NCBI GenBank assembly: GCA_017937135.1
Contig: JAGBEE010000012.1
Location: 11,250-75,249 of the forward strand
Origin: Clostridia bacterium
GTDB lineage: Bacteria > Bacillota > Clostridia > Oscillospirales > CAG-272
Direction: 5' to 3'
DNA length: 64,000 bases
Numbering within the stretch: the first letter of the stretch is position 1; every line of letters starts with the position of its first letter. Shown here one piece after another: positions 2,351 to 47,763 of the stretch. The notes beneath the pieces are model-generated. The model made no database searches. It had not been told where the DNA came from and saw only the letters and a program-made list of their open reading frames with translations. The translations under genes were made by a program, and so were the position numbers.

Positions 2351-3679
2351 ATGATGATACAAAAGATATCAAAGTCGTTTAAACATATAAACTATAAGCT
2401 TTTTCTTGCACTAATAGTTCTTGCATTAGCACCGACCATTTACACAACTGTTCGCGTGTTTTTTCTTGGGCAGTTGCCAGGAGAGTATTCATTTTCAATA
2501 GCGGGTCAGTTATCGTGGGTTAACCTGCTTTACGAAATATTAAATGAAGCAATCATTCTGCCGTTATTCTTTTTTGTTGGTAAGGTAAAGGATGATAAAA
2601 ATGAGTTTTCTAACCGAGTAAGAACAGGTATGCTAATCTCACTTGGCGTGTATATGGTTCTTTCTGCAATTGTGCTTATATTCGCAAAGCCATTGCTTAC
2701 GCTTATGGCTACCGATCCAAGCATTATTGAAGCTTCAGCATCATACATACGCATCGAAAGCATCGCAAACATTTTCTCAATTCTCACGCAGTTCGCGCTT
2801 GTTGCGCTTGTTACGGTCAATAAGAGCAAATACCTTTACGCACTTACAGGAGCAAGGCTCGTTTTGTGCCTTGTTTTAGATACATTCTTGGTTTCAACCT
2901 TGCCTGTGTCGGCGAATCTTGGAGTAAACGGAATAGGATATTCAAATATTATTGTTAACGCACTCTTACTTGCTGTATCTATTTTGCTTCTTGCAAGAGA
3001 GGGAATCAAGGTTTTTGCAAAGGCAAAATTAGACTTTTCGTGGGCTAAGGAATTTGCTAAAATAGGTGGAATTTCGGGAGTAGAATCACTTGTTCGTAAT
3101 GTTGCCTATATGGTTATGATTGCACGAATGGTAAATGTGGTAGGAGAGCAGGGAACATATTGGGTTGCCAACAACTTCATTTGGGGTTGGTTGCTTCTTC
3201 CCGTGCTTCAGCTTGGTGAGCTAATCAAGCAAGAGGTTGCAACAAACAAGGAAAATATCCGTCGTAACTCACTTGGCTATTTTGGGATAACAGCGATTAT
3301 ATCGGCTTTGTGGCTTGTAAGTATTCCTTTATGGAAGCCATTTATGACGCATATTCTTTGCTTTACCGATGTTGACAAGCTATTTGAGCTTGTAATGGTT
3401 CTTGTGGGCTTCTATGTCCTATACGCAATTCAAAATGTGTTTGACTCAACCTTTTATGGACTTGGAAAAACAAACTATATGCTTTTTGAATCGGTAGTAA
3501 CGAATACAATTTATTATGGCATTGCATTTATTCTTTATATCACAGGCGTGTGGACCCCGTCACTTATAGGCATAGCGTTGCTATTTGGTATTGGAAACGC
3601 ATTTGATAGTGTCGTATCTCTTGTAGCATATGCGTTCTTACTCAAAAAAGAAAAAATCAATATTTTAAAGGTTGAATAA
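2351..3679 (+). CDS. MATE-family efflux transporter
   Basis: 442 aa, about 12 hydrophobic segments, and length and architecture typical of MATE/NorM-like exporters. Lies 23 nt downstream of the AbrB-like gene. Confidence 0.75.
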   Translation: MMIQKISKSFKHINYKLFLALIVLALAPTIYTTVRVFFLGQLPGEYSFSIAGQLSWVNLLYEILNEAIILPLFFFVGKVKDDKNEFSNRVRTGMLISLGVYMVLSAIVLIFAKPLLTLMATDPSIIEASASYIRIESIANIFSILTQFALVALVTVNKSKYLYALTGARLVLCLVLDTFLVSTLPVSANLGVNGIGYSNIIVNALLLAVSILLLAREGIKVFAKAKLDFSWAKEFAKIGGISGVESLVRNVAYMVMIARMVNVVGEQGTYWVANNFIWGWLLLPVLQLGELIKQEVATNKENIRRNSLGYFGITAIISALWLVSIPLWKPFMTHILCFTDVDKLFELVMVLVGFYVLYAIQNVFDSTFYGLGKTNYMLFESVVTNTIYYGIAFILYITGVWTPSLIGIALLFGIGNAFDSVVSLVAYAFLLKKEKINILKVE

Positions 3680-16000: not shown

Positions 16001-16388
16001 CCTTAGCGTGATTCCTTAACGGACAAATCACGCTAAACGATGCTTGCCCTCACGGGCAAATGATGTTGCCTATGGCAATGATGTTCACTTTGTGAATGAT
16101 GTTGTGCCTTCGGCACAGTGAGCAAGCATCACATCATTGAAAACGTATGTGAGCAACATCATTATGCGAAGCAAAAACATAACTAACAGAAAAAAGAGAG
16201 GACATTTCGGATTTCCCGATTTGTTCTCTCCTTCTATTTGTATATGGGTTCCTCGAAGCGAAGTATGAGCTTTTTCGGTGGGCACATATATGGCTTTGAG
16301 CTTAGCCCAAGTGTATTTGACCGGTCAAATGTAATGCTCGCACTTAGCGGTGTTTTTCAAATTCTCCGCTAAGAATATCACCCATTCT
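16001..16388 (+). repeat. Intergenic repeat R1, copy A (hairpin-array element)
   Basis: Aligns by eye along its length to the reverse complement of 47272-47638. The core 16040-16140 matches at about 95 of 100 positions. Contains an array of short hairpins separated by AATGATGTT, and a hairpin plus T-run on the minus strand at 16190-16231. Confidence 0.8.
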
Positions 16389-16455
16389 GTCGGGATTTTG
16401 TTTATCTTCTTTTCATTTTTTTAAATACGTGCTATAATTACTATGAGGTGATATT

Positions 16456-21643: not shown

Positions 21644-22912
21644 ATGAAAAAAACACATTATGATATAATTGTCGTTGGTGGTGGGTTCGCTGGTGTATCT
21701 TCAGCAATAGCCGCAGCAAGAGAGGGCAAGGACGTTTTGCTTATAGAAAAATATAATTGCTTAGGTGGAGAGGCATCATTTAATATAGTCATTCCTTTTA
21801 TGCCTTATTGGACCTATGACAAGGAAACAAAGGAAAAAATACCTCTTTCAAGAGGAATTTTTGAGGAAATACTAACAAATATAAGAGCGCTTGGTGGAAC
21901 AAGGAAGGATTGGGACTGTTGCTTTGATGAGGAAATATTAAAGCTCGTTTTAAATCGTATGCTAAGGGCAAGTGGAGCAAGCGTGCTTTATCAAACCACC
22001 TTAGTTGGTGCAAATATGCAAAATGGTTACATGAAAAGCATTACCGTAACAAATGTAAGTGGCACGTATGACATTAGCGCAGATTATTTTATAGATGCAA
22101 CGGGTGATGGCAATTTAGCGACACAGGGTGGCTTTGAATACAGAAAGGGAAGGGAGTCAGATGGGCTATGTCAGCCAATGACTCTGTCATTTAGAATAGG
22201 TAATGTAAATAAGGACGAGTACGAAAAATGCAAGAGCGAAATAAATCCACTCTACAAGAAATTGAAAAGGGAAGGCAAAATTAAAAACGAGCGTGAGGAC
22301 CTTTTGATTTTTAAAACGGCTTTTGATACGGAATTGCATTTTAACGCAACGAGAGTTACAAGGCTTGACCCTACAAAAATAGAGGATTTAACTGAGGCGG
22401 AGCTTATAGCAAGAGAGCAGGTATTTGAAATCTTTAATTTTTTAAAGGACAATTTTGAAGCCTTTAAAAATAGCTACATATCAAAAACAGGAATACAAAT
22501 AGGTGTAAGAGAGAGCAGACAAATAGTGGGTGAATATACTCTTTCTAAAAATGATATAATTTCCTGTAAAAAATTTGACGACTCCATCGCTCTTTGTAAT
22601 TATGATATAGATATTCATAGCCCAGACGGTGAAGGAACAAGTCACTATTACTTCAAAGAAGGAGAATACTACGAAATACCATATAGGTGCTTATTACCCA
22701 AGGGCAGTAAAAATCTAATTGTAGCAGGCAGATGTATCAGCGCTGACCACGAGGCACAGGCTTCCCTTAGAATTATGCCAACCTGTGCAGCAATAGGACA
22801 GGGCGCTGGGATAGGGGCTGTAGTTGCACATGATGATAATGTGCCTGTAAATAAAATTGATATAAAAAAGCTACAAGAGAAGCTAATTTTAAATGGCGCA
22901 AAAATACACTAA
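21644..22912 (+). CDS. FAD-dependent oxidoreductase (FAD_oxidored/GidA-like fold)
   Basis: N-terminal DIIVVGGGFAGVSSAIAAAREGKDVLLIEK dinucleotide-binding motif. Start at ATG 21644 is preferred (purine-rich stretch upstream); 21632 is possible. Confidence 0.75.
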   Translation: MKKTHYDIIVVGGGFAGVSSAIAAAREGKDVLLIEKYNCLGGEASFNIVIPFMPYWTYDKETKEKIPLSRGIFEEILTNIRALGGTRKDWDCCFDEEILKLVLNRMLRASGASVLYQTTLVGANMQNGYMKSITVTNVSGTYDISADYFIDATGDGNLATQGGFEYRKGRESDGLCQPMTLSFRIGNVNKDEYEKCKSEINPLYKKLKREGKIKNEREDLLIFKTAFDTELHFNATRVTRLDPTKIEDLTEAELIAREQVFEIFNFLKDNFEAFKNSYISKTGIQIGVRESRQIVGEYTLSKNDIISCKKFDDSIALCNYDIDIHSPDGEGTSHYYFKEGEYYEIPYRCLLPKGSKNLIVAGRCISADHEAQASLRIMPTCAAIGQGAGIGAVVAHDDNVPVNKIDIKKLQEKLILNGAKIH

Positions 22913-22921
22913 AAACAAATA

Positions 22922-23179
22922 GGGGCTGTCGCATTAAGCGACAGCCCCTTGTTTGTGGATAGTGAAATGAGTGCCCCAAGGCGAGATTCGTACACGTAGG
23001 CGTACTTCGTACGGTAGAGTGCTAGGTCGCGCCTAAAAAACAGATGTTAAAATGAAGAGAGCTTGCAACAAAACCGCAAGCTCTCAACCTTAAAATTTTA
23101 CTAAAATAAATGTTTATACTTAATTTCAAGAGGGAATGTGTCTGTTTATAATCTGCGCTTATTGCAACATCCTCTTTTT
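22922..23179 (+). repeat. Intergenic repeat R2, copy 1 (convergent-terminator module)
   Basis: About 257 bp, near-identical in direct orientation to 38118-38374. Starts with the hairpin GGGGCTGTCGC-ATTAA-GCGACAGCCCC. Contains CGTAC-TTC-GTACG and GAGAGCTTGC...GCAAGCTCTC hairpins. Ends at the stop codon of the ABC exporter. Confidence 0.8.
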
Positions 23180-28273: not shown

Positions 28274-28286
28274 TCTAAATAAAAGA

Positions 28287-28323
28287 GGGGCTGTCGCATT
28301 AAGCGACGCCCCTTTGATTTTTG
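28287..28323 (+). terminator. Intrinsic terminator; third copy of the R2 leading hairpin
   Basis: GGGGCTGTCGC-ATTAA-GCGACGCCCC followed by TTTGATTTTT. Same sequence as at 22922 and 38118. Confidence 0.7.
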
Positions 28324-28324
28324 T

Positions 28325-28363
28325 AAAAAATATGCACCATCAGGAGCGTTTTGATGGTGCATA
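28325..28363 (-). terminator. Intrinsic terminator of the Gfo/Idh/MocA gene
   Basis: On the minus strand, TATGCACCATCA-loop-TGATGGTGCATA (12-bp stem) is followed by TTTTTT. Confidence 0.65.
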
Positions 28364-37884: not shown

Positions 37885-38109
37885 ATAATAAAAATCACGG
37901 TTTATGGTATTTCAGAAGCAACAGCACAAACAAAGCTTTACTGCTGTGGATATATCATAATAGACGGTGAGATAACCTATATTGACAATGGAGCCTTGAG
38001 TGATACAGCTCAAACAAAATCCTACTCAGACTACGGCACAGAGTTCAATGCTGTAGAGACAGTAGAAGCTATTGTTCCAACAAAGGAAACTTACTCACAA
38101 GTAGCATAA
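37885..38109 (+). pseudogene. Possible stranded 3' fragment of a gene (74 codons, no start codon)
   Basis: Open frame IIKITVYGISEATAQTKLYCCGYIIIDGEITYIDNGALSDTAQ...KETYSQVA-stop with no ATG/GTG/TTG start or RBS. Ends 8 nt before the R2 terminator hairpin. Confidence 0.25.
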
Positions 38110-38117
38110 AACGATAA

Positions 38118-38374
38118 GGGGCTGTCGCATTAAGCGACGCCCCTTTTTTGAGGGATAGTGAAATATGCGCAGAAGGCGTGAACTCGTACACGTAGGCGTA
38201 CTTCGTACGGTAGAGTGCGAGGTCGCGTCTAAAAAACAGATATTAAAATGAAGAGAGCTTGCAACAAATTGCAAGCTCTCAACCTTAAAATTTTACTAAA
38301 ATAATTGTTTATACTTAATTTCAAGAGGGAATGTGTCTGTTTTTGGTCTGCACTTATTGCAACATCCCCTTTTT
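38118..38374 (+). repeat. Intergenic repeat R2, copy 2
   Basis: Direct repeat of 22922-23179, with scattered substitutions and a 1-nt deletion in the first hairpin. Again lies between convergent transcription units. Confidence 0.8.
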
Positions 38375-47252: not shown

Positions 47253-47271
47253 TTAAATTAAACACGACTCT

Positions 47272-47638
47272 ATTGGGTGATACCTTAGCGAAGAATTTAC
47301 ACTTTAGTAAAAGTGACAGCATCGCATTAGATTGGTCAAATGCGAATATATGCTAAGCCCAAAATATTATAACAAGCAGAGAAAGAGAGAACAAATCGGT
47401 TTTATAAGCCGAAATGTTCTCTCTTTTTTCTGTTAGTGATGTTTTTGCTGACGCAAAAGTGATGTTATGCTTCACATAATGATGTTGCTCGCAAAAGCTC
47501 ACAATGATGTGATGCTTGCCAACTGTGCCGAAGACACAACATCATTCACAAAGTGAACATCACTGCCGTAGGCAACATCATTTGCCCGTGAGGGCAAGCA
47601 TCATTTAGCGTGAATGCTCCGTTAAGAGCATCACGCTA
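47272..47638 (-). repeat. Intergenic repeat R1, copy B (inverted relative to copy A)
   Basis: The reverse complement aligns to 16001-16388. It carries one extra hairpin unit (about 47437-47459) relative to copy A. Confidence 0.8.
47384..47430 (+). terminator. Intrinsic terminator embedded in R1 copy B (serves the lipoprotein gene)
   Basis: AGAGAGAACAAATCGG (47384-47399) pairs with CCGAAATGTTCTCTCT (47409-47424), followed by TTTTT. The equivalent hairpin in copy A (16190-16231) faces the minus strand. Confidence 0.55.
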
Positions 47639-47734
47639 TTTGGAGTCCTGTTTTTTTATTCATCATATATTCACAGGGGCGTAATTTAAAATATTAGAAA
47701 AATCAAAAACAAAGGAATTTTATATAGAATTTAC

Positions 47735-47763
47735 TTGACAACTTAAATGCATAAATGTATAAT
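47735..47763 (+). promoter_or_regulatory. Consensus sigma-A promoter of the aromatic amino-acid operon
   Basis: TTGACA (47735-47740), a 17-nt spacer, then TATAAT (47758-47763). Confidence 0.55.

What the first reader, a model, noticed from the sequence alone, without database searches (positions are those of the whole stretch)
47437..47610. Copy B of the array has one extra unit, and its substitutions preserve pairing only as G-U on one strand
**Extra unit.** Relative to copy A, copy B contains an additional linker plus hairpin unit (GTGATGTT-TTTGC-TGAC-GCAAA, about 47437-47459). Unit number therefore varies between copies, as with boxB modules in BOX elements.

**Substitutions.** Two substitutions fall in stems:
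- TGTGCC/GGCACA in A becomes TGTGTC/GGCACA when B is read on the minus strand (plus-strand 47524-47538).
- TTGCC/GGCAA in A becomes TTGCC/GGCAG (plus-strand 47563-47575).

On the AAUGAUGUU strand both changes give U-G wobble pairs. On the opposite strand they would be C-A mismatches. Two events are only suggestive. They favour an RNA-level structure read from the plus strand at copy A and the minus strand at copy B.

**First hairpin.** The inner stem of the first hairpin also differs between copies while staying paired. Copy A has TCC/GGA (within AGCGTGATTCC-TTAAC-GGA...ATCACGCT). Copy B has TGCTC/GAGCA (within AGCGTGATGCTC-TTAACG-GAGCATTCACGCT).
Basis: seen in the sequence. Interest (0 to 1): 0.6.

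Follow-up and report, generated by a model that had tools for sequence, protein, structure and literature searches.

The report
Gut-1-type hairpin repeat, copy B
Copy B is one of about twenty copies of a gene-less, hairpin-rich repeat that sits inside transcription terminators of an uncultured ruminant-gut Clostridia bacterium. Its differences from copy A are a slippage deletion in A, compensated stem changes and a few random mutations, and they do not show which strand is used.

Summary
All three observations are real. Copy B (window 47272-47638) has a 23-nt linker-plus-hairpin unit (47436-47458) that copy A lacks. The two stem substitutions and the repaired inner stem of the tail hairpin are also there.

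The reading needs correcting:
- Nineteen other type I arrays carry the unit, so copy A lost it, by deletion between two TTGCT repeats.
- Across 20 arrays the stems co-vary strongly. Uncompensated wobble pairs in the variable stems are equal on the two strands (7 cells against 7).
- Only the constant linker ends are strand-specific, and they mirror each other in the two halves. Each strand therefore carries a Gut-1-like 5' half.

The element is a modular, terminator-nested repeat with imperfect terminal inverted repeats. Its array is a sub-threshold relative of Rfam Gut-1 (RF01706). The orthologous site is empty in 10 of 10 relatives.

Gut-1 arrays co-occur with, and lie just upstream of, Avd-like PF05635 genes (odds ratio 29). 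Their link to a RAYT-like transposase is weak.

The scan found this before: copy A on this same window, and Gut-1-type arrays noted in at least 196 genomes.

The parts
47263..47270 (+). 5' arm (CACGACTC) of the lipoprotein gene's own intrinsic terminator, split by the element
   Evidence: It pairs 7 of 8 with GAGTCCTG at 47643-47650, which is followed by T7. Every other copy has its own copy-specific flanking inverted repeat plus a T-run. The orthologous spacer in 10 of 10 relatives holds one plain terminator and no element.
47272..47363 (+). Head module. It starts with the left terminal inverted repeat (ATTGGGTGATACCTTAGCG...), followed by small hairpins.
   Evidence: It aligns to the heads of A, C1, C33, C17b, C40 and relatives at 65-75%. 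The left end matches the reverse complement of the tail hairpin at 25 of 33 positions, z = 4.8. The head is optional: C5, C36 and C17a lack it or carry another head.
47385..47429 (+). Internal terminator-like hairpin: GAGAGAACAAATCGG, loop, CCGAAATGTTCTCTC, then T6
   Evidence: Seen in the sequence and in the fold. It is the most widely shared module, found in 30+ places in the genome.
47436..47458 (+). Unit F1 (linker GTGATGTT plus hairpin TTTGC-TGAC-GCAAA). This is the 'extra unit' missing from copy A.
   Evidence: It is present in 19 of 20 type I arrays. In A the deletion lies between two TTGCT repeats.
47459..47523 (+). The rest of the forward half: units F2-F4 with RTGATGTT linkers. It includes the B-private G>A at 47474 and GATGCTTGCCA (47511-47521), the 5' strand of a long-range helix.
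   Evidence: The long-range helix with 47592-47602 is 97% paired across 20 arrays, with one co-varying pair (C-G to U-A, 7 cells). Rfam Gut-1 scores 23.2 bits on the plus strand here.
47524..47538 (+). Central hairpin TGTGCC-GAA-GACACA, with the B-private G>A at 47533
   Evidence: Across copies the stem co-varies: TGTGCC/GGCACA, TACGCC/GGCGTA and TTCACC/GGTGAA.
47539..47605 (+). Reverse half: three hairpins (CAC-AAA-GTG, TGCC-GTA-GGCA, TTGCCC-GTGA-GGGCAA) joined by AACATCAY linkers
   Evidence: Rfam Gut-1 scores 35.4 bits on the minus strand at 47534-47606, against a gathering score of 50. The loop of the last hairpin is GNRA on the plus strand in 19 of 20 arrays.
47606..47638 (+). Tail hairpin TAGCGTGA-A-TGCTC / CGTTAA / GAGCA-TCACGCTA.
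   Evidence: The inner stem co-varies: TGCTC/GAGCA, TGTCC/GGACA, TACTC/GAGTA. The hairpin also occurs alone, nested in terminators (G000:C41:13032; G004 L144), and directly after the RAYT-like gene.
47643..47657 (+). 3' arm (GAGTCCTG) and T-run of the host terminator
   Evidence: see the 5' arm.
16004..16390 (-). Copy A. It has the same module order, read on the minus strand, and sits inside the aspS terminator.
   Evidence: The aspS 3' site holds no element in about 73 of 77 related species.

Best explanation
**What it is.** Copy B is one member of a dispersed, gene-less, modular repeat of a genus of uncultured ruminant-gut Clostridia. The modules, in order, are:
- an optional head that starts with an imperfect inverted copy of the tail;
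- an internal terminator-like hairpin;
- a two-armed array of small hairpins joined by one constant 8-9-nt linker, 4-5 forward then 4-5 reverse-complement;
- a tail hairpin.

The whole unit lies inside the loop of the host gene's intrinsic terminator. The array is a linker variant of the Rfam Gut-1 motif.

**Why A and B differ.** They belong to different sub-lineages, and three ordinary processes explain the differences:
- slippage or unequal pairing between the repeated units, which removed 23 nt from A and duplicated units elsewhere;
- compensated stem changes that keep every hairpin;
- a few private, uncompensated transitions that look like neutral decay. In B these are two G>A changes on the plus strand.

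Neither strand is singled out. The two halves are mirror images, so either strand offers a Gut-1-like 5' half.

**How it probably works (inferred).**
- The element spreads by a still unidentified mechanism that targets terminator hairpins.
- A half-array of 4-5 identical linkers held between hairpins probably serves as a multi-site platform for the oligomeric Avd-like PF05635 protein. Genes for that protein carry such arrays just upstream.
For: - **Copies and modules.** At least 15 copies in the genome, with the modules above. Three or more linker types, always with mutually complementary forward and reverse sets.
- **Spread.** Found in 23 of 24 sampled genomes of the genus.
- **Insertion.** Copy-specific flanking inverted repeats plus a T-run. 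Empty orthologous site in 10 of 10 relatives for B and in about 73 of 77 species for A.
- **Terminal inverted repeats.** z = 4.6-6.6.
- **Deletion polarity.**
- **Stem co-variation.** 87% of cells paired against 29-45% when the partner is slid. 54 cells with changes on both sides, 0 of 500 shuffles as high.
- **No strand signal.** G.U equals A.C at 7 cells each in the variable stems. Folding energies are equal, -132.2 and -133.0 kcal/mol. Orientation relative to neighbouring genes is not fixed: 13 convergent, 8 tail-side only, 4 head-side only.
- **Gut-1 kinship.** Every half-array scores 23-47 bits. Weinberg's own seed sequences show GUGAUAUU linkers, reverse linkers and flanking inverted repeats.
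- **PF05635 partner.**
  - Genome-level co-occurrence is 55/9/15/71, odds ratio 29.
  - The only PF05635 gene of this genome is preceded by an array that runs up to its ribosome-binding site.
  - Arrays lie upstream of 15 of 30 such genes in the order sample and 15 of 21 in the genus sample, and these include linker types I-IV.
Against: - No transposase or mechanism of spread is shown.
- No direct repeats (target-site duplications) flank the copies.
- This genome has one PF05635 gene, whose array uses linker AATGAAG, yet most of its dispersed arrays use GTGATGTT or GTGATATT. A simple one-protein, one-linker pairing does not hold here.
- In some PF05635 loci a consensus promoter lies between the array and the gene (L269, L260). 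The array is then not always part of that transcript, so binding as DNA is equally open.
- Co-occurrence counts are not corrected for relatedness.
- No transcription data could be obtained.
Confidence: 0.75

Rival explanations
1. The array is a strand-specific structured RNA, read from the plus strand at copy A and the minus strand at copy B, and its stem substitutions are tolerated only as G-U.
For: - The two substitutions named are U.G on B's minus strand.
- The better Gut-1 match in B is on the minus strand, 35.4 against 23.2 bits.
- Linker-end pairs are wobble-compatible only on the forward-linker strand.
Against: - Variable stems show 7 G.U against 7 A.C cells over 20 arrays.
- In the 3' half, single events run about 5 sense G.U to 2 A.C, opposite to the prediction.
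- 47474 G>A is a counterexample.
- Both of B's private changes are G>A on one strand, as a mutational bias would give.
- The loop of the last hairpin is GNRA on the plus strand.
- Folding energies are equal on the two strands.
- No promoter lies inside the element.
- Orientation relative to neighbouring genes is not fixed.
Confidence: 0.08
2. A REPIN/BIME-like element moved as single-stranded DNA by the genome's single RAYT-like HUH tyrosine transposase. The transposase would recognise the tail hairpin and its inverted copy at the head.
For: - One RAYT-like gene is present (G000:C16:6439-6939). It scores E = 2e-17 against NCBIfam REP_Tyr_transpos. Its only PDB hit is 4ER8 TnpAREP, with the HUH and YIYxNP motifs aligned.
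- The hairpin TAGCGTGATGA-ATTT-TCATCACGCTA follows its stop codon and has the family's tail stem. It is 1 of only 13 such hairpins in the genome.
- The element has inverted hairpin-bearing ends.
- Solo tail hairpins occur nested in terminators.
Against: - The scores are below the curated cut-offs: 63 against 80 bits, and 19.9 against 23.
- The closest orthologues are followed by ordinary terminators, and other paralogues carry classical GTAG REPs.
- Three high-quality genomes have elements but no RAYT-like gene (G013, G022, G024).
- Across the order, the odds ratio with Gut-1 is only 2.0 (p = 0.10). Genomes with 24-28 arrays have no RAYT-like gene.
Confidence: 0.2
3. A double-stranded DNA array of protein-binding sites, like iterons or operators. 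The 8-9-bp linker would be the site, four copies in each orientation, and the hairpins would be incidental spacers.
For: - Linkers are spaced about 20-25 bp apart, close to two helical turns.
- All linkers of an array are the same motif in two orientations.
- In L269 and L260 the array lies upstream of a consensus promoter of a PF05635 gene.
Against: - The spacers are always hairpins and co-vary strongly. A duplex-DNA site array does not need this.
- Loops are biased to GNA/GNRA on one strand of each half.
Confidence: 0.1
4. A host-beneficial terminator reinforcement or 3'-end stabiliser with no partner protein, as proposed for REP, BIME and ERIC elements.
For: - It is always nested in terminators and over-represented between convergent genes (13 of 25).
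- It carries its own terminator-like hairpin.
Against: - Relatives manage with plain terminators at the same sites.
- This does not explain the constant linkers or the PF05635 association.
Confidence: 0.1

Closest known systems
Gut-1 RNA motif (Rfam RF01706; Weinberg et al. 2010, PMC2864571)
   Same: - Small hairpins of free sequence are joined by a constant linker (GUGAAAU there; GUGAUGUU, GUGAUAUU and GUGAAGUU here).
- The hairpin bases are extended by the linker ends A-U and U.G, leaving a 3-nt gap.
- Some published seed sequences already carry GUGAUAUU linkers, downstream reverse linkers, an upstream terminator and flanking inverted repeats.
- Gut-1 matches above the family's cut-off occur in 50 of 151 genomes of the same order.
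   Different: - All arrays of this genome score below the gathering score (23-47 against 50 bits).
- The Rfam model covers one half only (three hairpins).
- The 2010 paper says only that the motif occurs in human-gut sequence. It does not describe the mirror-image second half, the nesting in terminators, the other modules or a partner gene.
REP / BIME / REPIN elements with RAYT transposases (Bertels and Rainey 2011, PMC3116915; Bertels et al. 2017, PMC5581495)
   Same: - Short intergenic palindromes occur in both orientations, and copies sit at gene ends.
- Hairpin-bearing inverted ends are present.
- A RAYT-like gene has a family hairpin beside it.
   Different: - The element is 300-420 nt long with internal modules.
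- The hairpin sequences are free and only the linker is fixed, the reverse of REP logic.
- The RAYT link is weak across genomes.
BOX elements of Streptococcus pneumoniae (boxA-boxB(n)-boxC), named from my own knowledge
   Same: Modular intergenic repeat with a variable number of a middle module and extensive predicted structure.
   Different: No sequence comparison was made here. BOX has no constant-linker, free-hairpin array, no mirror-image halves and no known nesting in terminator loops.
Avd / 23S rRNA-IVP four-helix-bundle proteins (Pfam PF05635), known as the accessory protein of diversity-generating retroelements
   Same: The candidate partner gene of Gut-1-type arrays belongs to this Pfam family (100 bits in this genome).
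   Different: I did not look for a reverse transcriptase or template/variable repeats next to these genes. The family's role here is unknown.

Membership tests
Gut-1 RNA (RF01706) | Covariance-model score at or above the gathering score (50 bits) | tested here: not met
   B scores 35.4 bits (minus strand, 47534-47606) and 23.2 bits (plus strand, 47434-47490). Other copies score 28-46.6 bits.
Gut-1 RNA (RF01706) | Three or more hairpins of variable sequence separated by a constant purine-rich linker whose ends extend the stems (A-U, U.G) | tested here: met
   Alignment to the model. Linker-end pairs are 95-100% paired on the forward-linker strand.
Gut-1 RNA (RF01706) | Expressed as a non-coding RNA | not testable with these tools
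No promoter was predicted inside the element.
REPIN-RAYT system | Two inverted REP-like hairpin sequences forming the ends of the element | tested here: met
   The left end matches the reverse complement of the tail hairpin at 75-80% over 21-33 nt, z = 4.6-6.6. The similarity is imperfect.
REPIN-RAYT system | A cognate RAYT gene flanked by the same repeats | tested here: inconclusive
   One RAYT-like gene has a family tail hairpin 3' of it. It scores below the curated cut-offs, and its orthologues lack the hairpin.
REPIN-RAYT system | Repeats and RAYT gene co-distributed across genomes | tested here: not met
   Odds ratio 2.0, p = 0.10 in 150 genomes. 47 of 64 Gut-1-positive genomes have no homologue. 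G013, G022 and G024 have elements without one.
Classical MITE (cut-and-paste, DDE transposase) | Terminal inverted repeats plus direct target-site duplications | tested here: not met
   Terminal inverted repeats are present. The flanks are inverted (terminator arms), not direct repeats.
BOX elements | Sequence homology to boxA, boxB and boxC | not tested
   No BOX sequence was compared. The resemblance rests on module logic only.

The most novel reading that the evidence does not exclude
Gut-1-type arrays, including this terminator-nested form, may be the nucleic-acid partners of the pentameric Avd-like PF05635 proteins. Each half-array of 4-5 identical linkers would wrap one oligomer, and protein paralogues and linker types would co-diverge. 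The mirror-image design would let the element work in either orientation at bidirectional terminators. If so, this is an undescribed protein-nucleic-acid system, widespread in gut Clostridia, in which an Avd relative acts with no reverse transcriptase seen beside the one gene read in full here.
Probability: 0.3. Interest if true: 0.75.

Novelty: new variant of a known kind. Interest (0 to 1): 0.4.

Why it matters
- **For the finding as given.** It matters little. The copy-to-copy differences are ordinary repeat evolution and give no strand call.
- **For the family behind it.**
  - Gut-1 has been an orphan Rfam motif since 2010, then known only from human-gut sequence.
  - This work places a variant of it in named genomes and shows that it is half of a mirror-image array. 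It also shows that the array rides in a modular element that lands in terminator loops.
  - This work also tests, on 150 genomes, a candidate protein partner (PF05635). Both orphans thereby become experimentally approachable.

Tried and rejected
- **Rfam at gathering thresholds.** Nothing in the window.
- **Automatic G.U against A.C tally.** The apparent bias (5' half 23:2) came almost wholly from the constant linker ends. Counted on the variable stems alone it vanished.
- **Loop polarity.**
  - Loops read T..C in the 5' half and G..A in the 3' half on one strand. This conflicts with the linker-end polarity.
  - I could not reconcile the two, so I use neither as a strand call.
- **RAYT as the mobilising enzyme.** Attractive, but weakened.
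- **Target-site duplications.** None found. A 'TA' at both ends is part of the tail stem.
- **Internal promoter.** None conserved.
- **Orientation bias relative to neighbouring genes.** None: 8 against 4, p = 0.39.
- **K-turn or box C/D reading of RUGAUGU.** Considered from memory and dropped, because the reverse linkers supply no partner GA.

Full report
**1. The observation**

Copy B lies at window 47272-47638 and is read on the plus strand. Copy A lies at about 16004-16390 and is read on the minus strand. They align over about 390 nt, with 90% identity in the array.

- **Extra unit.** B has GTGATGTT-TTTGC-TGAC-GCAAA-A at 47436-47458, which A lacks.
- **Central hairpin.** B reads TGTGCC-GAA-GACACA at 47524-47538, and 47533 is A where other copies have G.
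- **Second substitution.** B reads CTGCC-GTA-GGCAA at 47563-47575.
- **Tail hairpin.**
  - In B the inner stem at 47607-47637 is TGCTC/GAGCA.
  - In A's lineage it is TGTCC/GGACA.
  - In A itself a 1-nt deletion cuts it to TCC/GGA.

All three observations are confirmed. The element folds far better than shuffles on both strands (-132.2 and -133.0 kcal/mol, z = -9.1 and -9.3).

**2. What the thing is**

*Copies and modules.* A search of the whole 1.85-Mb genome finds more than 15 copies. The modules, in order, are:
- an optional head of about 90 nt;
- an optional 44-nt spacer;
- a terminator-like hairpin followed by T6;
- the array;
- a tail hairpin, TTAGCGTGA...TCACGCTAA.

*Linker types.* Arrays come in at least three types, and the forward and reverse linkers of a type are always complementary:

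| Type | Forward linker | Reverse linker | Where seen |
|---|---|---|---|
| I | RTGATGTT | AACATCAY | six copies in this genome, including A and B |
| II | AGTGATATT | AATATCACT | this genome |
| III | AGTGAAGTT | AACTTCACT | relatives |
| fourth | GTTATGA | TCATAAC | genome G004 |

Every array has its forward linkers first and its reverse linkers second.

*Nesting in terminators.*
- Each whole element is flanked by a copy-specific inverted repeat followed by a T-run.
- For B the arms are CACGACTC (47263-47270) and GAGTCCTG plus T7 (47643-47657).
- In 10 of 10 relatives that keep the lipoprotein-pheA gene order, the spacer is 134-202 nt with one plain terminator and no element. In this genome it is 556 nt.
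- The aspS site of copy A is likewise empty in about 73 of 77 species.
- The element therefore sits in the loop of the host terminator.

*Ends and context.*
- The left end is an imperfect inverted copy of the tail hairpin (75-80% over 21-33 nt, z = 4.6-6.6).
- The tail hairpin also occurs alone inside terminator stems.
- No promoter is predicted inside the element.
- Orientation relative to neighbouring genes is not fixed: 13 convergent, 8 tail-side only, 4 head-side only.
- The family is present in 23 of 24 sampled genomes of the genus.
- The relatives are ruminant hind-gut MAGs labelled Clostridia, Eubacteriales or Oscillospiraceae.

**3. Kinship with Gut-1**

- With relaxed thresholds, each half of every array matches Rfam RF01706 (Gut-1) at 23-47 bits, against a gathering score of 50. 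The 5' half matches on the sense strand and the 3' half on the antisense strand.
- The Gut-1 consensus is the same design: hairpins whose bases are extended by linker ends (A-U, U.G), leaving GAA between them.
- Weinberg's Stockholm file, which includes flanks, shows seed sequences with GUGAUAUU linkers, downstream AAUAUCAC linkers, an upstream terminator and flanking inverted repeats (PMC2864571). The published motif is thus one half of this kind of element.
- The paper itself says only that Gut-1 is found in human-gut sequence.
- Gut-1 matches above the family's cut-off occur in 50 of 151 sampled genomes of the order.
- All nine top-scoring loci that I read (89-91 bits, nine genomes) lie just after tRNA-type gene ends plus a terminator. 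They come from at least seven families, yet their arrays are nearly identical by eye.

**4.

*(a) Unit number.*
- All 19 other arrays carry F1 as well as F2.
- In A the 23 nt between two TTGCT repeats are missing. A lost the unit; B did not gain it.
- Other copies show duplications (L063, L078) and losses (L070). Unit number does vary, as slippage between identical linkers would produce.

*(b) Strand.*
- The stems are real. 87% of cells pair, against 29-45% when the partner is slid. 13 pairs and 54 cells changed on both sides (0 of 500 shuffles reach 54). The co-variation score is 0.184 against 0.096.
- In the variable stems H1-H7, wobble cells on the sense strand equal A.C cells (7 against 7). 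Other mismatches are at least as frequent.
- B has two private stem transitions, 47474 G>A and 47533 G>A.
  - Both are C.A on the plus strand.
  - Two G>A changes on one strand are what a mutational bias would give.
That base is polymorphic throughout the family, C in 9 arrays and T in 11.
- Only the linker ends have a consistent strand polarity. There are 79 G.U and 0 A.C cells in the 5' half, mirrored by 77 A.C and 13 G.U in the 3' half.
- Loop polarity runs the other way. Loops read T..C in the 5' half and G..A (GNA, GNRA) in the 3' half on the same strand. I leave this conflict unexplained.

*(c) Tail hairpin.* The inner stem co-varies among lineages (TGCTC/GAGCA, TGTCC/GGACA, TACTC/GAGTA) while the outer stem is constant.

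*An additional helix.* An 11-bp long-range helix joins GATG(C/U)UUGCCC in the centre to GGGCAA(G/A)CAUC at the 3' end. It competes with the last local hairpin and is 97% paired, with one co-varying pair. Type III arrays keep it with different letters.

**5. Who moves or uses it**

*RAYT-like transposase.*
- The genome has one RAYT-like HUH tyrosine transposase. It scores E = 2e-17 against NCBIfam REP_Tyr_transpos, below the cut-off. Its only PDB hit is 4ER8 TnpAREP.
- Its stop codon is followed by a hairpin with the family's tail stem. This is one of only 13 such hairpins in the genome.
- Against the link:
  - Orthologues lack the hairpin, and other paralogues carry classical GTAG REPs.
  - Three good genomes have elements without the gene.
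  - Across 150 genomes of the order the association with Gut-1 is weak (odds ratio 2.0, p = 0.10).

*Avd-like PF05635 protein.* Earlier notes of this scan pointed to a small Avd-like PF05635 gene. I tested that lead here.
- The only such gene in this genome (100 bits) follows two tRNA genes and a terminator. An array (AATGAAG three times, CTTCATT four times) then runs up to its ribosome-binding site.
- Across the same 150 genomes, Gut-1 and PF05635 co-occur 55/9/15/71 (odds ratio 29, p = 1.6e-17, not corrected for relatedness).
- Arrays lie within about 350 nt upstream of 15 of 30 PF05635 genes in the order sample and 15 of 21 in the genus sample. Their linker types include I, II, III and IV.
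- The genus genome without the element (G008) also lacks the gene, and the three genomes without a RAYT-like gene have it.
- Cautions:
  - This genome's dispersed arrays use linkers other than that of its one PF05635 gene.
  - In some loci a consensus promoter lies between the array and the gene, so binding as DNA or as RNA is open.

**6. Verdict**

- **Observation and reading.** The reading is partly supported: unit variation and compensation hold, while the polarity of the indel and the strand inference do not.
- **Classification.** The element is a new linker and architecture variant of a known but unexplained kind (Gut-1), carried in a terminator-nested modular repeat.
- **Shown.** Its non-coding repeat nature, the empty orthologous sites and the stem co-variation.
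- **Inferred.** The way it spreads and the PF05635 platform role.
- **Scan history.** The scan has reported this family before: copy A on this same window, and Gut-1-type arrays noted in at least 196 genomes.

Noticed in passing
G000:C16:6397-6939 (L081/L082), outside the window: A single RAYT-like HUH transposase gene starts one base after the stop of a trpB-like gene. It is followed by the hairpin TAGCGTGATGA-ATTT-TCATCACGCTA plus T5, which has the same stem as the element's tail hairpin. In G004 homologues are multi-copy and break contigs.
   Followed up: partly
L230 1090-1824 (G000:C35:17080-17812), outside the window: The layout is two tRNA genes, a terminator, a mirror-image array (AATGAAG three times, CTTCATT four times), then the only PF05635 (Avd/IVP-like) gene. 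Downstream lies a reverse-complement copy of the 44-nt spacer module of the dispersed elements.
   Followed up: partly
window 22912-23179, 38108-38374 and 28277-28333: A second repeat family has the hairpin GGGGCTGTCGC-ATTAA-GCGACAGCCCC and a block of about 190 nt, 93-96% identical between two places. The same hairpin adjoins a type II array at G000:C17:~420.
   Followed up: no
L112, L114-L120, L123 (nine genomes of the order): All nine top-scoring Gut-1 loci read (about 89-91 bits, nine genomes) look nearly identical although they come from at least seven families. They lie directly after tRNA-type gene ends plus a terminator whose stem differs in each. They end with a conserved ..GAGTTCGAATTCATACGC that resembles a tRNA T-arm.
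   Followed up: no
L065 1-100 (G007:C186): The 44-nt spacer module (GAACCCCCAAAGCTCATACTTCGCTTCGGGGAACCCCTATAC) is tandemly duplicated and bounded by CCCTATAC repeats. It behaves as an insert of its own.
   Followed up: no
L153 about 2985-3100: Another species has an independent GTGATAT-type array starting right after the aspS stop codon, at the same gene end as copy A.
   Followed up: no
L079 (G026:C45:104650-105550): Two arrays of different linker type (TGAAGY and ATGATGTT) lie in tandem next to a tRNA gene on the opposite strand.
   Followed up: no
window 47735-47763: A perfect TTGACA-17-TATAAT promoter for the pheA-like gene lies about 100 nt downstream of the element.
   Followed up: no
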